Below, in pieces: positions 243-9,669 of a DNA stretch of 9,669 nucleotides. The stretch's first letter is position 1; each line of letters starts with the position of its first letter. The DNA comes from a virus (Duplodnaviria; Heunggongvirae; Uroviricota; Caudoviricetes): IMG/VR virus record IMGVR_UViG_2671180254_000012, one strand, 5' to 3'. The notes beneath the pieces are model-generated. The model made no database searches. It saw only the letters and a program-made list of their open reading frames with translations, and was not told the origin of the DNA. Made by a program: the position numbers and the translations under genes.

Positions 243-1325
243 TCATTTTCTCTGGCTGATCTTTACCGGATAACCATCCCGAAGATCAATTAAGTGCTCC
301 GGTTCAGAAGCAAACCATGCATAAGATCCCCACGCCAATTCTGGTATTGCCTTTTTAAAAGGCAGAGCACTTCTGTCCATAAATGCCGTAAGGAATGCAA
401 GATTTTTCTCGCTGAACCCAGCGTCAATAGCCAAATGAGTGAGAGTAACTTTTCGTTCCCTGTTTATAGGCCCATCTGTCGCAACTACTTCAGTGAAAAC
501 TACAAGCATGTCCGAACCCGTTCGGTCCTCTCCCAAATCAATCAAAATAATATCTGGAAGTGCTTTTGAGGCATCAATATTCAGCCCCAATGCTTTTGCC
601 AATACATCATCCTGAGCAACAACTTTATTCCCGGATTCAGACAACCAGAGCACAGTTGGATTCTTAAGAAAATTAGGAGCAAAAACTTCGATGACGGCCT
701 TAGCTATTGTACTTGACGGGCCCGGAGCTAAAGTTCTCTTCTCTCCATTTGGGAAAGTGACGACTACGGCATCAGCAGCAATCACTGCCCCTGATTTCAA
801 TAAACGCAACCTAGCAAGAGCGGCTTTGTTCAAATGATTTTCTTGCCAGGAACTTATTGCACTCAGCAGCGAATCTCCTTCAAGCCCGGCATCAAAGAGT
901 GCTGCAAAAGAGCGATTCAAACTGTAACGAGGACGAGAGGATGTGGTGGGTATACCTTTACGCTCAACAATTGCATTGCAAGGTATTAGGCCATTTTTTA
1001 TAGTTTCATCACGTATTGGCTCACGCGTATTTTCCGCATACCATGCATCAGCAGGCCTTATCTTTTGTTTAGAGAAAGTCATCTTTACCCAGCTTTCTCT
1101 GGACGCATCATCAGTAAGAGCAGCCTGCGAATCTCCCATACTTACAACCTGGCTGGGCCTTATCCATCGCCCCAGCCCCTCAACCGCACCAGCATAAAAC
1201 ATGACAAAAATTGTTTTTGCAGCTATTTCCCGAATTAAATATCCACGATTCTCAGTCCCTTCAGGGAAAATTAATTGTAATCTTTCCCGGATAACATTCA
1301 ATGGGGGAACAACAGGCAGATTCAT
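243..1325 (-). CDS. Type II restriction endonuclease, BsuBI/PstI family
   Basis: 360-aa ORF immediately downstream of and ATGA-overlapping (1322-1325) an N6-adenine methyltransferase gene; the protein resembles the BsuBI/PstI endonuclease family by overall recognition. Not verified by search. Confidence 0.65.
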   Translation of the reverse strand: MNLPVVPPLNVIRERLQLIFPEGTENRGYLIREIAAKTIFVMFYAGAVEGLGRWIRPSQVVSMGDSQAALTDDASRESWVKMTFSKQKIRPADAWYAENTREPIRDETIKNGLIPCNAIVERKGIPTTSSRPRYSLNRSFAALFDAGLEGDSLLSAISSWQENHLNKAALARLRLLKSGAVIAADAVVVTFPNGEKRTLAPGPSSTIAKAVIEVFAPNFLKNPTVLWLSESGNKVVAQDDVLAKALGLNIDASKALPDIILIDLGEDRTGSDMLVVFTEVVATDGPINRERKVTLTHLAIDAGFSEKNLAFLTAFMDRSALPFKKAIPELAWGSYAWFASEPEHLIDLRDGYPVKISQRK

Positions 1326-2796
1326 GCAATCATCACTCCATAGAAACCAGCGATAGTTCTCTCAATAATCCGTCTGTGGACGCCAGCATCAATTAACGAT
1401 TGAATCTCCATCACCTGCTCCAGAGAAGGCAACGGGATTGAATTCAATTCATAGGCCGAAACAGCAACACTTCCGCTTATACACCTGAACGCCCGATCGA
1501 CAACATGCGAATTAAGTAGCATATCAATAACATCAGGGCGAACCGCAGAGAACAATCCGTTTGAATATACAATATTAATATGGTTTTCAACTACTACGCC
1601 ACCAGTTTCATCTATAAATCCCTGAGGTAAAATTGCCGCTAAAATCCTTCTGTCCTGTTCCTTCGATGTTGTCCGCTGAACAAGCACACATTCAGATTTT
1701 GTCACAAGGAAACCCTGTTGTGGGGTTATATCGATATAGGGAACATGATTTTTTCTGTCTGCACTAAAACGAAAACCAGCTGAAGTTATTGATTCCGCCC
1801 AGACTAATGGGTAGCTATTTTTTCCTTTCGTCGTACGCAACTGCGACTTAAATCGATTCCAGACTAACTGACCTGTAGAGACTGAGTATCCCAGATCAGC
1901 TAAACGCGTAGACATCTGTTTTAATACATTAAGAAAACAGGCATCATCTTTAACGCGTGGCAAAAGCCACGTTGCTCCACCTTTTTCTATATCAACATTA
2001 CCTATTTTCTCAATTTTTGCTTTGTTCAACCCCTTAGGGACAAGTGAGGATACCTGGGCCCGAACTTTATGTTCTCCCGCCTTGAATGCTGTCAACATTG
2101 TTTCCTGGAGAACATCGTCAAAGACCCCATCCCTGTCAGTGACGAAATCAAGGGCATACGGAGTAGTTTTTTCGGTCAAAAGGGTTCGCAGCGCGGTGAA
2201 ATACTGCCCACCAAGAAAAGAAGTTGGCGTAAGAAATGCAATAACTCCTGTTTTCTCTTTAACCATGCGAACAGCTAAGTCGGTGAACAATCCATATAGA
2301 TTTGCATGACCAAATAACGAACGAGAATATTTTTCTCTCGTTTTAATATCGAGAGTGACACGTCCGTAAGGCGGATTCCCTACCACAAGATCATAACCAG
2401 AAAATTTATCTTGCTGAAGCGCATCAGCAACAATAATTGTATCTTCAGGCAATCTACGTTTTACCTTTACACATAGTGGCATTAGTACAGATTCGAGCAA
2501 TACCAAACTCATCCAAGCCGCAAATGGATCGATCTCTATCCCCTTTAAACGACGACTGATTCTCCTCAACATCCATTCAGGGGAAGACCCCTTGTCTTTT
2601 TTTAACATTCGAATGGCTACTGGTGCCAAAAATGCACCGCCACCACACGCAGGATCAATAACCGATGCATGAGAAAAATCAACACCAGACTTTTCAGCCA
2701 GGTCCAAGAGACGCGCTACCAAAGGTGGGGGGGTATAGTAAGCCCCCAATTCCGAACGGTAAGCGGATGGCAGCATTACCGTATAAATTGACCCAA
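1322..2796 (-). CDS. N6-adenine DNA methyltransferase, gamma-class (PstI/BsuBI-type M subunit); 5' end lies in the N-run
   Basis: Translation contains GAYYTPPP (motif X), DPACGGGAFL (SAM-binding motif I) and VVGNPPYGR (catalytic motif IV, NPPY) in the gamma-class order. Stop TGA at 1322-1324 overlaps the endonuclease ATG. The N-terminus is hidden by the gap at 2797-3058. Confidence 0.8.
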
Positions 2797-3058
2797 NNNN
2801 NNNNNNNNNNNNNNNNNNNNNNNNNNNNNNNNNNNNNNNNNNNNNNNNNNNNNNNNNNNNNNNNNNNNNNNNNNNNNNNNNNNNNNNNNNNNNNNNNNNN
2901 NNNNNNNNNNNNNNNNNNNNNNNNNNNNNNNNNNNNNNNNNNNNNNNNNNNNNNNNNNNNNNNNNNNNNNNNNNNNNNNNNNNNNNNNNNNNNNNNNNNN
3001 NNNNNNNNNNNNNNNNNNNNNNNNNNNNNNNNNNNNNNNNNNNNNNNNNNNNNNNNNN
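2797..3058. other. Run of N (262 nt), assembly gap or masked segment
   Basis: Directly visible in the sequence. Confidence 0.95.
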
Positions 3059-3140
3059 TGGCCATGGCTTTACAAGTTTGATATCTTTCCAGATTAGAAA
3101 ACTCATTATCTGTAAAAAAATCAAAATGTTGCACATTCAT
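3059..3140 (-). CDS. 5' part of a small ORF of unknown function upstream of the methyltransferase (3' end in gap); could instead be the methyltransferase N-terminus
   Basis: ATG at 3140 (minus) giving MNVQHFDFFTDNEFSNLERYQTCKAMA before the N-run; weak AGGA upstream. Alternative starts at 3176 and 3136. Frame continuity across the gap cannot be established. Confidence 0.3.
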
Positions 3141-3390: not shown

Positions 3391-3747
3391 TTATTCGGGG
3401 CTATATTTTGTCACCCTGCGTATCCGCGCTTTCGCATTACGCTCAATCTGGATTAGCTTTTCTATATTTTTTCGCCTTTCCCGCTCCTCCTGGCGCAAGA
3501 GCCTTACATCATCTGCCAGTCTGGTTTCTCTTTTCGCCACAGAGAGCATCCAGTCAAATGGCTCCACAACTGCACCGCAAATTTTACAGCGGACCTGACG
3601 CTCTTTTTCGTCAACCCGGACAGAAGCGTGATGGCAATATGGTCTTTCCGATGGCTCATAAAGAAAATTAACCTGATTACGAGGGTTATCCTCTTTTACC
3701 GGAAATAAAACAATATTGCTTAACTCATCTTCTGGTTTTATTTCCAT
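3391..3747 (-). CDS. Hypothetical phage protein with putative zinc ribbon (C-H-H...C-x-x-C) and a charged coiled-coil tail
   Basis: ATG at 3747 preceded by strong RBS (AAAGGAGAGGAGC) on the minus strand; the longest ORF extends to a GTG at 3804. Translation MEIKPEDELSNIVLFPV...CHHASVRVDEKERQVRCKICG...RRKNIEKLIQIERNAKARIRR. Confidence 0.5.
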   Translation of the reverse strand: MEIKPEDELSNIVLFPVKEDNPRNQVNFLYEPSERPYCHHASVRVDEKERQVRCKICGAVVEPFDWMLSVAKRETRLADDVRLLRQEERERRKNIEKLIQIERNAKARIRRVTKYSPE

Positions 3748-3804
3748 GCTCCTCTCCTTTGATGCGAATGCCAGCGGTAATTGAAGCCTGATAGCTAATT
3801 TCAC

Positions 3805-5476: not shown

Positions 5477-5726
5477 NNNNNNNNNNNNNNNNNNNNNNNN
5501 NNNNNNNNNNNNNNNNNNNNNNNNNNNNNNNNNNNNNNNNNNNNNNNNNNNNNNNNNNNNNNNNNNNNNNNNNNNNNNNNNNNNNNNNNNNNNNNNNNNN
5601 NNNNNNNNNNNNNNNNNNNNNNNNNNNNNNNNNNNNNNNNNNNNNNNNNNNNNNNNNNNNNNNNNNNNNNNNNNNNNNNNNNNNNNNNNNNNNNNNNNNN
5701 NNNNNNNNNNNNNNNNNNNNNNNNNN
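5477..5726. other. Run of N (250 nt), assembly gap or masked segment
   Basis: Directly visible in the sequence. Confidence 0.95.
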
Positions 5727-6640: not shown

Positions 6641-6895
6641 NNNNNNNNNNNNNNNNNNNNNNNNNNNNNNNNNNNNNNNNNNNNNNNNNNNNNNNNNNNN
6701 NNNNNNNNNNNNNNNNNNNNNNNNNNNNNNNNNNNNNNNNNNNNNNNNNNNNNNNNNNNNNNNNNNNNNNNNNNNNNNNNNNNNNNNNNNNNNNNNNNNN
6801 NNNNNNNNNNNNNNNNNNNNNNNNNNNNNNNNNNNNNNNNNNNNNNNNNNNNNNNNNNNNNNNNNNNNNNNNNNNNNNNNNNNNNNNNNNNNNNN
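6641..6895. other. Run of N (255 nt), assembly gap or masked segment
   Basis: Directly visible in the sequence. Confidence 0.95.
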
Positions 6896-7249
6896 GACAA
6901 AATCATCAGCGTCTCTCACCAGTCGTTCATGCGTCTCCACCAGTTCCCGAAAATAAGCTGAACTGTGGCTGCGCATTCGAGCCACCAGCGGAGGTGGCAT
7001 TGCCCTTTCGATCGCAGGTAACAACGCCTGAATTTTTTCAACAGCGTCAGGGGTGTCTTTATCCAGCCAACGGAAAATCTTTTGGGTGTTGAGATAAAGC
7101 GTGTTGTGCTTGCTGTCGTTATGCAGAACCGGAAACGTCATTCCCAGTTCGAAATAAACCCTGGTTATTTCAGCTGCCGGAACTTTTTCACCGTCCGGAT
7201 GCGCCCAGGCTTTCATCGCCATGCGGATGTGTTCATGCTTGATTTTCAT
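6896..7249 (-). CDS. ydaT: YdaT-like protein (Rac-prophage-type, proposed CII-like regulator/toxin), C-terminus in gap
   Basis: N-terminus MKIKHEHIRMAMKAWAHPDGEKVPAAEITR... recalled as the YdaT family; ATG at 7249 overlaps the stop of the upstream HTH gene in an ATGA arrangement. Confidence 0.6.
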
Positions 7250-7509
7250 GAATCAACCCCCGCCGATGGTTGTGTGTTAGCCTGAAACTCAGCAGGCAAG
7301 CCGTCAGTTGGGTTGGGGTAGGTTTTACTGTCAATCTCATGTGGGGTCACCACCCATCCCGTTGCTTCACACCAACGTAATATTTTTTCTCCTGTAAGTT
7401 TTGCACGCCCCGTTATAACGTGGCTGACCATCCCTTGGGATGCGCCAACAATCTCAGCAAATGAACTCTGGGTTATATGAAAATGATGCAAATATTCTCC
7501 AAGATTCAT
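7246..7509 (-). CDS. Cro/YdaS-like HTH DNA-binding protein (first gene of the rightward early operon)
   Basis: ATG at 7509 with AGGGCGGA RBS; HTH segment SSFAEIVGASQGMVSHVITG; divergent from the repressor gene; stop overlaps the YdaT-like start. The longest ORF starts at a TTG at 7536. Confidence 0.6.
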   Translation of the reverse strand: MNLGEYLHHFHITQSSFAEIVGASQGMVSHVITGRAKLTGEKILRWCEATGWVVTPHEIDSKTYPNPTDGLPAEFQANTQPSAGVDS

Positions 7510-7545
7510 AATCCGCCCTATGTGATGTGTTACCAATGCATAATT

Positions 7546-7585
7546 AATAGCACTGTTATTTTTAAAAGTAAATAGTGATACTATT
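7546..7585. promoter_or_regulatory. OR-like operator region: two 15-bp inverted-repeat sites (AATAG-N5-YTATT) between the divergent repressor and cro-like genes
   Basis: AATAGTGATACTATT at 7571-7585 (6-bp arms AATAGT/ACTATT, 3-bp spacer) and the imperfect AATAGCACTGTTATT at 7546-7560, 25 bp centre to centre; on the minus strand a TTGAAA -35-like hexamer flanks the palindrome. Confidence 0.45.
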
Positions 7586-7620
7586 TCAAAGTGATTAGCA
7601 ATCTTATTAGAATTGGATGT

Positions 7621-8121
7621 ATGAAAAGAAAATCATTGTCAGACACCGACCTCAACGCCGCCAGAAGACTGAAAGAAATCTGGATGGCAAAGAAATCTCA
7701 GTTGGGATTGACTCAGGAACGTGCGGCGGAAATTATGGGGTTTTCAACACAAGGGGCGGTAAGTCACTACCTAAATGGTCAAACCCCACTAAACCTTGAG
7801 GCTGTTCTAAAGTTTGCTGGCTTACTGAAAGTTCCCCCTGAGTCAATCAGGCCAGACATGGTAGATTTGCTGCAAATTGCAAGGATGTATTGTCGAGAAC
7901 CACAGCAAGATAACATAGTCGCATTACCAGCAGACACAGAACAAACAGAGGATGAACTACCGTTTGCCGTAGAGCCGATGGAACGAGATTTAATCCATAC
8001 GTTCAGAGCTTTTCCGAAAGAAGATCAAGAACACATGCTTCAGGAGATGAAAGATAAAAAAGAATCAATGGATCGTACGGTTGCGCGGTGGTTAGCTGCA
8101 CAAAAAGGCCGTCGCGCCTAA
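7621..8121 (+). CDS. cI-like prophage repressor (RacR/PaaR2-like), HTH XRE-type N-terminal domain, no recognisable LexA-type peptidase domain
   Basis: ATG at 7621 (the track start at 7591 is a GTG); HTH LGLTQERAAEIMGFSTQGAVSHYLNG; divergent to the cro-like gene; no obvious SD, so possibly a leaderless or short-leader transcript as for lambda cI from pRM. Confidence 0.65.
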   Translation: MKRKSLSDTDLNAARRLKEIWMAKKSQLGLTQERAAEIMGFSTQGAVSHYLNGQTPLNLEAVLKFAGLLKVPPESIRPDMVDLLQIARMYCREPQQDNIVALPADTEQTEDELPFAVEPMERDLIHTFRAFPKEDQEHMLQEMKDKKESMDRTVARWLAAQKGRRA

Positions 8122-8140
8122 ATCAGAGGAGATATGTAAA

Positions 8141-8335
8141 ATGAGTACAGTCCTTTCCCCAATGGTTTCAGAATTTGAGACAGTTGAGCAAGAAAATAGT
8201 TACAACGAATGGCTGCGGGCCAAAGTAGCAGCAAGCCTCGCGGATCCCCGCCCGGCGATTCCGCATGATGAGGTAATGGCGGAAATGGAACAAATTATTG
8301 CCCAAATTGCTGCTGCAACTCACAGAGGTGAATAA
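8141..8335 (+). CDS. paaA2: PaaA2-like antitoxin (ParE-associated antitoxin)
   Basis: 64-aa ORF with AGAGGAGA RBS; sequence ...SPMVSEFETVEQENSYNEWLRAKVAASLADPRPAIPHDEV... recalled as close to E. coli O157 PaaA2; stop TAA overlaps the toxin ATG by 1 nt. Confidence 0.65.
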   Translation: MSTVLSPMVSEFETVEQENSYNEWLRAKVAASLADPRPAIPHDEVMAEMEQIIAQIAAATHRGE

Positions 8336-8625
8336 TGTTACCCGTTTTATGGCTACCATCTGCTCGTGATGATTTGCGCCAGATCGTAGCCTACATAGCT
8401 AAAGAAAATCCCGCGGCAGCACGCAGAATGAAAATTCGAATTGAAACATCCGTTTTGCCGCTCACAGAGCATCCTTACCTGTATCCTCCAAGCGAGCGAG
8501 TTCTTGGTCTTCGTGAAATTGTAACTCATCCTAACTACATCATCCTTTACCGAGTAACAGCATCAAGCATAGAAGTAGTAAATATTGTGCATTCTCGAAG
8601 ACAGTATCCAGGCAAAAACAGTTAA
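8335..8625 (+). CDS. parE2: ParE/RelE-family toxin (ParE2-like)
   Basis: 96-aa ORF MLPVLWLPSARDDL...EHPYLYPPSERVLGLREIVTHPNYIILYRV...; GAGGTG RBS; translationally coupled to the upstream antitoxin. Confidence 0.7.
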   Translation: MLPVLWLPSARDDLRQIVAYIAKENPAAARRMKIRIETSVLPLTEHPYLYPPSERVLGLREIVTHPNYIILYRVTASSIEVVNIVHSRRQYPGKNS

Positions 8626-8641
8626 TTATTCCCGCCGACAG

Positions 8642-8663
8642 AACCACCTTAGGGTGGTTTTTT
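8642..8663 (+). terminator. Rho-independent terminator candidate after the toxin gene
   Basis: AACCACC-TTAG-GGTGGTT stem-loop followed by TTTTTT, 17 nt after the parE2-like stop. Confidence 0.5.
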
Positions 8664-8681
8664 CTTGCCCCAACAAAAAAC

Positions 8682-8723
8682 AATAGCGATGCTATTTACA
8701 TCAAAAAAAATAATGATGCTATT
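8682..8723. promoter_or_regulatory. OL-like operator region: perfect 15-bp inverted repeat AATAGCGATGCTATT plus a second imperfect site
   Basis: AATAGCGATGCTATT at 8682-8696 (6-bp arms, 3-bp spacer GAT) and AATAATGATGCTATT at 8709-8723, 27 bp centre to centre; same motif family as 7546-7585; upstream of the ydaF-like gene. Confidence 0.45.
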
Positions 8724-8904
8724 GTTTCAGGCGTCAACCCACCCCGCCCCACAGAATGCAGGGCAATACTTCGAGTTACCAGACAGTGGTCAGGGGTTAA
8801 GTAGCCAGCCCGAGGCGTAAGAACATGACGGCAGGGTTCAATCTTTAACTATGCAGCAGGTTTTTTGTTCCGCCACCCCGGCGTTAAGGGGAAATGAGGT
8901 CAGC

Positions 8905-9057
8905 ATGGATACTATCGATCTTGGCAACAACGAATCTCTGGTGTGCGGCGTGTTCCCTAACCAGGATGGAACGTTTACCGCCATGACGTATACCAAAAGC
9001 AAAACGTTTAAAACCGAATCTGGCGCGCGTTGCTGGTTAGCCAGAAACACTGACTGA
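8905..9057 (+). CDS. Small YdaF-like protein (DUF1391-type, Rac prophage family)
   Basis: ATG at 8905 with GAGG RBS; MDTIDLGNNESLVCGVFPNQDGTFTAMTYTKSKTFKTESGARCWLARNTD recalled as similar to Rac YdaF; the track ORF begins earlier at 8851 without an SD. Confidence 0.5.
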   Translation: MDTIDLGNNESLVCGVFPNQDGTFTAMTYTKSKTFKTESGARCWLARNTD

Positions 9058-9068
9058 TGAGGCTGACG

Positions 9069-9434
9069 ATGGAATTTAAAGATTTACCGTCTGATGTACA
9101 GAAAACAGCAGCTCATACATTGCATTCTGTGCTGCGAGAAATCGGGAAAGATATTGCAAGCGAGCCAGCAAAAGATCTGGCCCGGAAAATCAAGACCGCT
9201 TTCGTTGAGCTTTATAATGTTGGCACTGACTCTGAAACTGTCGAGACCAAGACCGTAAGTTCACCAATATTCTCACTTGAGCCAAGCGTATTATCAGGTG
9301 AAATATGCACCGAGATTTCCAGCGAACTGCTTCCGGTAATACGAGAAGCAATTCGCCGTCGCGGTTTGGATGGAAGTTATGATCATGACGTTCTGCAAGT
9401 TCTCAGGACAATGGTGACTTCACTGGGGATTTGA
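9069..9434 (+). CDS. Hypothetical protein in the early-left operon position (121 aa)
   Basis: ATG at 9069 with GAGG 6 nt upstream; an alternative ATG at 9057 overlaps the upstream stop. No recognisable motif; not arginine-rich, so not an N-type antiterminator. Confidence 0.45.
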   Translation: MEFKDLPSDVQKTAAHTLHSVLREIGKDIASEPAKDLARKIKTAFVELYNVGTDSETVETKTVSSPIFSLEPSVLSGEICTEISSELLPVIREAIRRRGLDGSYDHDVLQVLRTMVTSLGI

Positions 9435-9669
9435 TCCCTGCGTCCTCTAAGCTTTTGATATAGCGGTCCTCCAAGAAGCGGTAAATTTTGTCGAAATCAT
9501 CTTTTCCCTCTGGTTTATTCAGAGGATTACAGGACCCGTAAGTAGCGGCATACATTTCAACCGTTTGGTAATGACTCCAACTTATTGATAGTGTTTTATG
9601 TTCAGATAATGCCCGATGACTTTGTCATGCAGCTCCACCGATTTTGAGAACGACAGCGACTTCCGTCCC

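What the first reader, a model, noticed from the sequence alone, without database searches (positions are those of the whole stretch)
7621..8625. Three-gene repressor/antitoxin/toxin unit (PaaR2-PaaA2-ParE2-like) occupying the rex position of the immunity region
A ParE-family toxin and a PaaA2-like antitoxin are translationally coupled and lie 19 nt downstream of the cI-like repressor, ending at a terminator before the OL-like operators. In lambda this slot holds rexAB, an abortive-infection system expressed in lysogens. A TA pair transcribed with the repressor could stabilise the prophage or act in exclusion. Whether the repressor gene doubles as the TA regulator and as the prophage immunity repressor is the point of interest.
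Basis: partly seen in the sequence, partly recalled or inferred. Interest (0 to 1): 0.5.

Follow-up and report, generated by a model that had tools for sequence, protein, structure and literature searches.

The report
Prophage repressor–antitoxin–toxin operon (PaaR–PaaA–ParE type)
This is an intact copy of a known three-gene unit, a lambda-like prophage repressor followed by a PaaA antitoxin and a ParE toxin, sitting where phage lambda carries rexAB; it differs from the studied E. coli O157 version mainly in having a different DNA-binding domain on the repressor, so it is an ordinary new member of a described system.

Summary
Three same-strand genes lie at 7621-8121 (166-aa HTH repressor), 8141-8335 (64-aa PaaA2-family antitoxin) and 8335-8625 (96-aa ParE toxin). 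They are separated by a 19-nt gap and a 1-nt TAATG overlap, and are followed by a hairpin and T-run terminator and then operator repeats.

The surroundings are a lambdoid immunity region:
- a divergent YdaS (Cro-like) gene and a YdaT (CII-like) gene;
- three operators in the divergent intergenic region and two after the terminator;
- a PRM-like promoter that puts the transcript start on the repressor ATG (leaderless);
- a perfect YdaT site at the ydaS/ydaT junction.

This architecture has been worked out experimentally for paaR2-paaA2-parE2 of O157 prophage CP-933P (mBio 2021, PMC8630535). A 2023 paper (PMC9986795) states that the TA pair "replaces rexA and rexB".

What is particular here:
- The toxin and antitoxin are closer to the other O157 paralogue (ParE 83%, PaaA 77%) than to ParE2/PaaA2 (67%, 66%).
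- The repressor has a true lambda-cI-like N-terminal domain joined to the roughly 48-aa C-terminal tail shared by PaaR-type proteins, with its own operator sequence.

Relatives of the repressor carry other cargo, or none, in the same slot. Verdict: low novelty, new member of a known kind.

The parts
6896..7249 (-). N-terminal part of the ydaT-like gene (CII analogue). The rest is hidden by the masked run 6641-6895.
   Evidence: Pfam YdaT_toxin E 5e-9. PHROG 163 'CII-like transcriptional activator' E 2e-38. 86% DNA identity to the phage Evi/CP-933P-type ydaT.
7239..7256 (.). YdaT operator (OM-type inverted repeat TTGATTTTCATGAATCAA) at the ydaS/ydaT junction. It marks the PRE-like establishment promoter region.
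   Evidence: It is the only zero-mismatch match to TTGATTN6AATCAA in the window. It is invariant in four heteroimmune relatives, including the CP-933P type in which it was footprinted (PMC9986795).
7246..7509 (-). ydaS-like HTH gene (Cro analogue), divergent from the repressor.
   Evidence: ORF. HTH_3 E 4e-4, below the Pfam cutoff. PHROG 35 transcriptional repressor E 8e-17. 79% identical to the O104:H4 homologue and 29% to the O157 YdaS.
7546..7608 (.). OR-like operator cluster: three 15-bp sites, AATAGCACTGTTATT (7546), AATAGTGATACTATT (7571) and ATTAGCAATCTTATT (7594), spaced 25 and 23 bp start to start.
   Evidence: Pattern search: 9 matches against 2.4 expected, 0 of 200 shuffles. Repeat family D1/D6. 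Conserved in the RMDEC465 and O104:H4 relatives.
7585..7613 (+). PRM-like promoter TTCAAA-17-TAGAAT. The predicted transcript start at 7620-7621 coincides with the repressor ATG, so the mRNA would be leaderless.
   Evidence: Consensus scan, 9 of 12. Both hexamers are invariant in relatives. Same geometry as the 5'-RACE-mapped leaderless paaR2 and lambda cI (PMC8630535). The start site here is inferred, not mapped.
7621..8121 (+). Immunity repressor, 166 aa: a lambda-cI-like N-terminal HTH domain (residues ~8-91), a disordered linker (92-118) and a PaaR-type C-terminal two-helix tail (119-165). It has no S24 peptidase domain.
   Evidence: Pfam HTH_3 only. PDB 1lmb E 2.9e-9. AF2 model, pLDDT 76, with Foldseek hits to lambda cI NTD: target-normalised TM 0.82-0.94, 36-40% identity. 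Tail alignment with PaaR-type proteins.
8122..8140 (+). 19-nt spacer with a GAGGAG ribosome-binding site. It holds no promoter-like element.
   Evidence: Sequence. Promoter scan.
8141..8335 (+). PaaA-family antitoxin, 64 aa, with no DNA-binding domain.
   Evidence: Pfam PF21217 PaaA2 E 3e-23. PDB 3zbe E 1.4e-23. 77% identical to the second O157 paralogue and 66% to PaaA2.
8335..8625 (+). ParE-family toxin, 96 aa. Its start overlaps the antitoxin stop (TAATG).
   Evidence: Pfam ParE_toxin E 1.8e-17. PDB 5cw7 ParE2 E 6.7e-37, full length. 83% identical to the second O157 paralogue and 67% to ParE2.
8640..8668 (+). Intrinsic terminator of the repressor-TA operon: a 9-bp hairpin followed by a T-run.
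   Evidence: RNA fold -15.1 kcal/mol, z = -2.96. The hairpin is conserved in RMDEC465 and O104:H4.
8682..8723 (.). OL-like operators AATAGCGATGCTATT (8682) and AATAATGATGCTATT (8709), 27 bp apart.
   Evidence: Zero and one mismatch to the operator pattern. Repeat family D1 shared with OR.
8695..8725 (+). Candidate PL-like promoter, TTTACA-19-TGcTATTGT (extended -10), built on the operator half-sites. Tentative.
   Evidence: Own hexamer scan, 9 of 12 with TG. The 19-nt spacer is long. Position by analogy to the PL933P tested in PMC8630535. Inference only.

Best explanation
The unit is the lysogenic (leftward) operon of a lambdoid, probably defective, prophage.

The repressor:
- It is the prophage's cI analogue and the first gene of the operon.
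- It is probably translated from a leaderless mRNA that starts at a PRM-like promoter.
- Its lambda-cI-like N-terminal domain would bind 15-17-bp AATAGnGATnCTATT operators at OR (three sites overlapping the divergent promoters) and at OL (two sites after the operon terminator).
- This would shut off the ydaS/ydaT-replication operon and the leftward early operon, and tune the repressor's own transcription.
- Its short helical C-terminal tail replaces the RecA-cleavable domain of cI and probably mediates oligomerisation, so the switch would not be directly SOS-cleavable.

The toxin-antitoxin pair:
- paaA and parE have no promoter or DNA-binding domain of their own. They ride on the repressor's transcript (19-nt gap, overlapping stop and start).
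- They would also be expressed from a YdaT-activated PRE-type promoter reading through from the ydaS/ydaT junction.
- PaaA neutralises ParE by direct binding.
- If the region is lost or swapped, labile PaaA decays and ParE, a nucleoid- or topoisomerase-directed poison, kills the cell. This stabilises the prophage and its immunity region.

Shown here: gene content, homology, spacing, operators, terminator, the YdaT site and the domain architecture. Inferred by homology to CP-933P: co-transcription, leaderless start, repression logic, toxicity and addiction.
For: - Gene order, overlaps and families.
- Operators at OR and OL, with a statistical control. They are conserved in relatives.
- PRM-like hexamers 7 nt upstream of the ATG, invariant in relatives.
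- Terminator fold.
- A perfect, invariant YdaT site.
- Repressor model: cI-like NTD, linker, helical tail. Lambda cI's acidic residues E34 and D38 align with E and E in this repressor; their role as lambda's activation patch is from my own knowledge.
- The synteny HTHx2 + ParE + antitoxin + YdaT recurs in every listed E. coli locus. A match to the TA pair occurs in 842 of 5426 genomes, and 606 have at least 80% coverage.
- Experimental basis in the type system: operon, leaderless paaR2, OR and OL footprints, PR/PRM/PL regulation, YdaT-activated PRE, bistability, plasmid stabilisation, ClpAP/ClpXP-labile PaaA2 (PMC8630535; PMC9986795).
Against: - Nothing was measured for this allele.
- The repressor's DNA-binding domain and operators are unrelated to those of PaaR2 (24% overall identity), so the regulatory details are extrapolated.
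- A 9-of-12 promoter-like site lies inside the repressor gene (7708-7736). It could give TA transcription independent of PRM, although the scan found no more sites than shuffled sequence gives.
- PR and PL could only be assigned tentatively.
- In CP-933P no ParE2 activity was detected in either switch state, so the biological role remains hypothetical even for the type system.
- The prophage is interrupted by IS1, so the switch may no longer control a viable phage.
Confidence: 0.8

Rival explanations
1. The TA pair is a lysogen-expressed anti-phage (abortive-infection or exclusion) module, a functional as well as positional replacement for rexAB. Infection by another phage would deplete PaaA or release ParE and abort the infection.
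For: - It occupies the slot that holds rexAB in lambda (PMC9986795).
- In relatives with the same repressor family, the slot holds pairs that match PADLOC defence or candidate-defence models. HipA_2 + DUF3037 matches PDC-M66A/B (E 2e-13 and 5e-19). HigB + HTH matches PD-Lambda-2_A/B (E 1e-14).
- The TA pair is transcribed in both switch states in CP-933P.
Against: - The three proteins match no PADLOC model.
- No anti-phage phenotype for PaaA-ParE turned up in the papers found.
- The published phenotype is post-segregational killing and stabilisation.
Confidence: 0.2
2. The TA pair is an autonomous insertion that merely sits next to the repressor. It has its own promoter and is regulated independently of prophage immunity.
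For: - A promoter-like site (TTGACT-17-AATTAT) lies inside the repressor gene at 7708-7736.
- The authors of PMC8630535 propose that the TA pair was inserted into the immunity region.
Against: - The gap is only 19 nt and holds just a ribosome-binding site.
- PaaA has no DNA-binding domain.
- There is no terminator between the repressor and paaA.
- The promoter scan gives no more sites than shuffles do (3 found, 3.7 expected).
- The TA DNA has diverged together with the immunity cassette (77-81%), while the flanks stay about 94% identical.
- The operon has been demonstrated in O157.
Confidence: 0.07
3. The unit is a decaying remnant in a dead prophage and has no current function.
For: - The prophage carries an IS1 insertion at about 9567.
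- The closest E. coli relative has a frameshifted integrase.
- CP-933P-type prophages are cryptic.
Against: - All three ORFs are full length.
- They are 99-100% identical at protein level to those of an independent E. coli strain.
- The operators, PRM hexamers, terminator and YdaT site are all intact and conserved.
Confidence: 0.08

Closest known systems
paaR2-paaA2-parE2 of E. coli O157:H7 prophage CP-933P/Sp12 (Hallez 2010, cited from memory; Jurenas 2021, PMC8630535). An identical ParE2 and an MQKKE-PaaR2 are also found in phage Evi, LR597642.
   Same: - Three-gene order, with a ParE toxin and a PaaA2-family antitoxin that lacks a DNA-binding domain.
- Location directly after the cI-analogue repressor, with divergent ydaS-ydaT.
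- Operators at both OR and OL, and a leaderless-type PRM geometry.
- An identical YdaT operator.
- No S24 domain, and a conserved C-terminal repressor tail (48% identity).
   Different: - ParE is only 67% and PaaA 66% identical, with the antitoxin C-terminus diverged.
- The repressor N-terminal domain is unrelated in sequence (overall 24%).
- Operator sequence is AATAGnGATnCTATT rather than GTTTAGTAA repeats.
- YdaS is 26% identical.
The second O157:H7 paralogue (paaR1-paaA1-parE1). I take it to be the CP-933M copy. Locus L002 from strain ATCC 43894.
   Same: This is the closest characterised-family relative of the TA pair: ParE 83%, PaaA 77%, repressor tail 69%. It has the same flanks (ydaT, ydfA, dicB).
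   Different: The segment 7321-7993 (ydaS N-terminus, OR, repressor N-terminal domain) has no DNA homology, which is a classic immunity-specificity swap. Assigning L002 to CP-933M rests on its being the non-ParE2 copy in an O157 genome and was not checked against the EDL933 annotation.
Lambda cI-rexA-rexB immunity operon
   Same: - The repressor N-terminal domain is truly homologous: E 3e-9, 36-40% identity, target-normalised TM 0.82-0.94.
- It shares the basic N-terminal arm and the acidic residues that align with lambda E34 and D38.
- Three OR sites spaced 23-25 bp, and a leaderless PRM.
- Accessory genes are co-transcribed with the repressor and end before OL.
   Different: - No S24 autocleavage or dimerisation domain.
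- The cargo is a ParE TA pair with no similarity to RexA or RexB.
- Two, not three, recognisable OL sites.
DicA/RacR-type repressors of the Qin and Rac cryptic prophages
   Same: The repressor sits at the same position, upstream of ydfA...dicB, with divergent Cro-like and YdaT-like genes.
   Different: According to the literature read here, those loci have no TA pair between the repressor and ydfA. This was not examined further.

Membership tests
PaaR-PaaA-ParE three-component type II TA system | Toxin of the ParE/RelE fold related to O157 ParE2 | tested here: met
   Pfam PF05016 E 1.8e-17. PDB 5cw7 E 6.7e-37 over residues 1-93, 67% identity.
PaaR-PaaA-ParE three-component type II TA system | PaaA-family antitoxin, short and without a DNA-binding domain, encoded immediately upstream of parE | tested here: met
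   Pfam PF21217 E 3e-23. PDB 3zbe E 1.4e-23. The stop and start overlap.
PaaR-PaaA-ParE three-component type II TA system | Third, upstream, same-strand gene for an HTH regulator homologous to PaaR | tested here: inconclusive
   The position and the HTH are met. Only the C-terminal ~48 aa are homologous to PaaR2 (48%) and to the other O157 paralogue's regulator (69%). The DNA-binding domain is of a different, lambda-cI-like lineage.
PaaR-PaaA-ParE three-component type II TA system | The three genes form one operon repressed by the regulator | not testable with these tools
   Consistent with the 19-nt gap, no internal terminator, one terminator after parE, and operators flanking the unit. Needs transcript mapping.
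PaaR-PaaA-ParE three-component type II TA system | ParE is toxic, PaaA neutralises it, and PaaA is protease-labile (addiction) | not testable with these tools
   Known only for the O157 system (PMC8630535).
Lambdoid immunity region of CP-933P type (PaaR/YdaS/YdaT switch) | Divergent Cro-like ydaS followed by CII-like ydaT, with the TTGATTN6AATCAA site at their junction | tested here: met
Lambdoid immunity region of CP-933P type (PaaR/YdaS/YdaT switch) | The same operator repeated at OR and at an OL site beyond the repressor operon | tested here: met
   Five sites, 9 matches against 2.4 expected, 0 of 200 shuffles. Binding was not tested.
Lambda cI repressor family (HTH + S24 LexA-like peptidase) | cI-type N-terminal DNA-binding domain | tested here: met
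Lambda cI repressor family (HTH + S24 LexA-like peptidase) | C-terminal S24 autocleavage and oligomerisation domain | tested here: not met
   166 aa with no Peptidase_S24 hit. The model shows only two C-terminal helices.
RexAB abortive-infection system | Homology to RexA or RexB | tested here: not met
   The Pfam, PHROG and PADLOC scans give only PaaA2 and ParE assignments. The analogy is positional only.

The most novel reading that the evidence does not exclude
The slot directly downstream of PaaR-tail and cI-like repressors may be a hotspot for interchangeable cargo in this prophage lineage. On that reading PaaA-ParE, like the PDC-M66-like and HigB/PD-Lambda-2-like pairs found there in relatives, is a lysogen-expressed anti-phage module wired to the immunity switch. 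It would be a true functional successor of RexAB rather than only an addiction module.
Probability: 0.2. Interest if true: 0.5.

Novelty: new member of a known kind. Interest (0 to 1): 0.2.

Why it matters
On its own it matters little. It confirms that the PaaR-PaaA-ParE arrangement described in O157 is a widespread, modular feature of Rac/Qin-like lambdoid prophages: a match to the TA pair occurs in 842 of 5426 complete E. coli genomes.

The allele has two modest uses:
1. Its repressor links PaaR-type regulators to lambda cI by direct sequence and fold homology of the N-terminal domain. The CP-933P work described PaaR2 as a cI analogue despite lacking sequence similarity.
2. Comparing heteroimmune relatives separates three modules that can be tested independently. 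These are a swappable specificity cassette (ydaS N-terminus, OR, repressor NTD, OL), a conserved repressor tail that occurs with or without the TA pair, and a variable cargo slot. This bears on whether prophage TA pairs serve addiction or defence.

Tried and rejected
- Rfam found no family anywhere in the window at gathering thresholds. Around OL and the leader it gave only a chance-level lncRNA hit at E 0.71.
- The conserved leader at 8726-8850 does not fold better than shuffles, z = +0.16.
- PADLOC gave no match for the repressor, PaaA or ParE.
- The consensus terminator scanner missed the operon terminator, so I confirmed it by folding.
- A confident PR could not be found. The best candidates score 7-8 of 12, or lack the final T of the -10.
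- The phage collection holds no close copy of this immunity cassette. Only about 13% of the query, the flanks, matched.
- I considered that the conserved repressor tail is a docking site for PaaA-ParE. I rejected this as its exclusive role, because the same tail occurs in repressors followed by HipA_2/DUF3037, by an unrelated pair, or by no called gene immediately downstream.
I rebuilt the alignment.
- The text held for Table S1 of PMC8630535 contains only its title, with no promoter sequences.

Full report
**1. Observation**

The window has three consecutive + strand ORFs:
- 7621-8121, 166 aa counted from the ATG that RefSeq also uses in a 98.8%-identical E. coli locus;
- 8141-8335, 64 aa;
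- 8335-8625, 96 aa.

The first gap is 19 nt and contains GAGGAG. The second junction is a TAATG overlap. There are no masked bases in 7200-9669; the N runs lie at 2797-3058, 5477-5726 and 6641-6895.

**2. Identity of the proteins**

| Protein | Evidence |
|---|---|
| 96 aa | Pfam ParE_toxin, E 1.8e-17; aligns end to end with crystallised O157 ParE2 (5cw7, E 6.7e-37; 62 of 93 identical) |
| 64 aa | Pfam PaaA2, E 3e-23; matches PaaA2 structure 3zbe, E 1.4e-23 |
| 166 aa | Pfam HTH_3 only; residues 2-81 align to the lambda cI N-terminal domain, E 2.9e-9 |

The 64-aa protein is near-identical to PaaA2 over residues 4-45 and diverges at the C-terminus. In the repressor, the basic N-terminal arm is kept, and lambda E34 and D38 align with E and E.

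An AF2 model of the repressor (pLDDT 76) shows helices 8-91, a disordered linker 92-118, and two C-terminal helices (119-129 and 133-165). Foldseek places the N-terminal domain on lambda cI NTD structures, with target-normalised TM 0.82-0.94 and 36-40% identity. There is no S24 peptidase domain.

**3. Surroundings**

- Divergent from the repressor is an 87-aa HTH gene, 7246-7509 on the - strand (PHROG 35 repressor, E 8e-17).
- It overlaps the start of a YdaT-family gene (Pfam YdaT_toxin; PHROG 'CII-like activator', E 2e-38). Replication genes follow, including an IstB/DnaC-like ATPase.
- Downstream on the + strand is ydfA (DUF1391).
- The close E. coli relative continues with ydfB, ydfC, dicB, an exonuclease and an integrase next to a tRNA.

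This is therefore the immunity region of a Rac/Qin/CP-933-like lambdoid prophage. The repressor is 99-100% identical to Shigella sonnei entries.

**4. Regulatory DNA**

*Operators.* A 15-mer, AATAGnGATnCTATT, occurs three times in the 111-bp divergent intergenic region, at 7546, 7571 and 7594. It occurs twice just after the operon, at 8682 and 8709. With up to 3 mismatches the window has 9 matches against 2.4 expected, and 0 of 200 shuffles reach 9. Only one match lies outside these two clusters.

*PRM.* A PRM-like promoter, TTCAAA-17-TAGAAT, ends at 7613, so the expected start falls on the ATG at 7621. This is the leaderless geometry known for lambda cI and mapped for paaR2 (PMC8630535). Both hexamers and the operators are conserved in a 78%-identical O104:H4 homologue. 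The middle operator abuts the -35 element, as lambda OR2 does, and the third lies between -35 and -10.

*Terminator.* After parE, a 9-bp hairpin (8640-8661) followed by a T-run folds at -15.1 kcal/mol, z = -2.96.

*YdaT site.* The single perfect match to the YdaT operator TTGATTN6AATCAA lies at 7239-7256, on the ydaS/ydaT junction. It is invariant in four heteroimmune relatives, including the type in which it was footprinted (PMC9986795).

*PR and PL.* These could only be proposed tentatively, as extended -10 elements built on operator half-sites.

**5. What is already known**

Jurenas et al. 2021 (PMC8630535) showed the following for CP-933P:
- paaR2-paaA2-parE2 is the leftward immunity operon.
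- PaaR2 is the cI analogue. It is leaderless, binds OR and OL, represses PR and PL, and activates and then represses PRM.
- YdaS and YdaT are the Cro and CII analogues.
- The locus is bistable.
- The TA pair is addictive but shows no detectable activity in either switch state.

**6. How this copy differs**

I recovered three comparison loci: the genuine PaaR2 locus from phage Evi (100% ParE2, repressor starting MQKKE), the second O157 paralogue (L002), and an O104:H4 locus (L003).

| Compared with | ParE identity | PaaA identity | Repressor identity |
|---|---|---|---|
| Second O157 paralogue | 83% | 77% | 34% |
| System 2 (PaaR2 locus) | 67% | 66% | 24% |
| O104:H4 | 88% | 83% | 78% |

All PaaR-type proteins share only the last ~48 residues. 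For this window that tail is 48-79% identical to theirs.

DNA comparison shows a classic immunity swap. Homology to the second O157 paralogue stops at 7320 and resumes at 7994, so the ydaS N-terminus, OR and the repressor N-terminal domain are replaced. The flanks from 8735 onward are about 94% identical even to the CP-933P type.

**7. Comparative test of the tail and the slot**

Repressors with the same N-terminal domain or tail were traced to their contigs.

| Repressor | Cargo in the downstream slot |
|---|---|
| 244-aa forms carrying both the cI-like HTH and the HTH domain of the 132-133-aa PaaR-type repressors, plus the tail | HipA_2 + DUF3037 (PADLOC PDC-M66A/B) |
| Salmonella 154-aa form | HigB + HTH (PD-Lambda-2_A/B-like) |
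| One 243-aa form (L013) | An unannotated overlapping pair |
| The 255-aa and Serratia 132-aa forms | No called gene immediately downstream |

The tail is therefore a property of the repressor family, most likely an oligomerisation element, and not a PaaA-ParE-specific adaptor. The slot holds variable cargo.

**8. Mechanism and confidence**

I rate at 0.8 that this is a repressor-driven PaaA-ParE operon working as in CP-933P, but with a different operator specificity. Addiction or stabilisation is the best-supported role. A Rex-like anti-phage role is not excluded (about 0.2): the slot in relatives holds defence-like cargo, but PADLOC has no match for these proteins and I found no phenotype in the literature.

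**9. Verdict**

Novelty is low: this is a new member of a known kind, a heteroimmune allele with a cI-like DNA-binding domain. Interest 0.2.

Noticed in passing
window 8734-8860 (+): A ~125-nt non-coding stretch between the OL-like operators and ydfA is almost invariant across four heteroimmune prophage types, while the cassettes to its left differ widely. It is probably the start of the PL transcript or a mosaic junction. It has no Rfam family and no fold better than shuffles.
   Followed up: partly
window ~9567-9669: The window ends in an IS1 terminus. Prophage homology stops at about 9566, and the remainder matches IS1A/IS1B copies in more than 5000 plasmid records, so the early-left region of the prophage is interrupted.
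   Followed up: yes
window 243-3136 (-): A restriction-modification pair sits inside the prophage, downstream of the replication genes: a BsuBI/PstI-type endonuclease (243-1325; E 9e-45 and 1e-30) and an Eco57I/N6_Mtase-type methyltransferase with an NPPY motif (1322-3136, partly masked).
   Followed up: partly
proteins P0013, P0018, P0020, P0022; loci L005-L007, L010-L013: Repressors of 243-255 aa carry two HTH domains in tandem, the cI-like one of this window and the one found in the 132-133-aa PaaR-type repressors, before the shared C-terminal tail. This suggests domain shuffling by recombination within the repressor gene.
   Followed up: partly
L005:3787-5360, L008:3612-4339, L013:3325-4073: The slot after the repressor holds other two-gene cargo in relatives: HipA_2 + DUF3037 (PADLOC PDC-M66A/B), HigB + HTH (PD-Lambda-2_A/B-like), and an unannotated overlapping 150-aa and 98-aa pair.
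   Followed up: partly
L004 (phage Evi LR597642.1) 3501-3776: Phage Evi encodes a ParE2 100% identical to the crystallised O157 protein, next to an MQKKE-PaaR2 and PaaA2, but the parE2 gene is not annotated in the record. The CP-933P-type immunity module therefore also occurs in a deposited phage genome.
   Followed up: partly
window 7706-7717 and 7837-7848: A perfect 12-nt inverted repeat (GATTGACTCAGG / CCTGAGTCAATC), 119 nt apart, lies inside the repressor's N-terminal coding region. My rough estimate is about 0.05 such pairs by chance in this 1.36-kb stretch. Its significance is unknown.
   Followed up: no
window 7708-7736 (+): A promoter-like site, TTGACT-17-AATTAT (9 of 12), lies within the repressor gene. 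If active it would transcribe paaA-parE without a full-length repressor, loosely like lambda's promoter inside rexA (my recollection). The scan as a whole found no more sites than chance.
   Followed up: no
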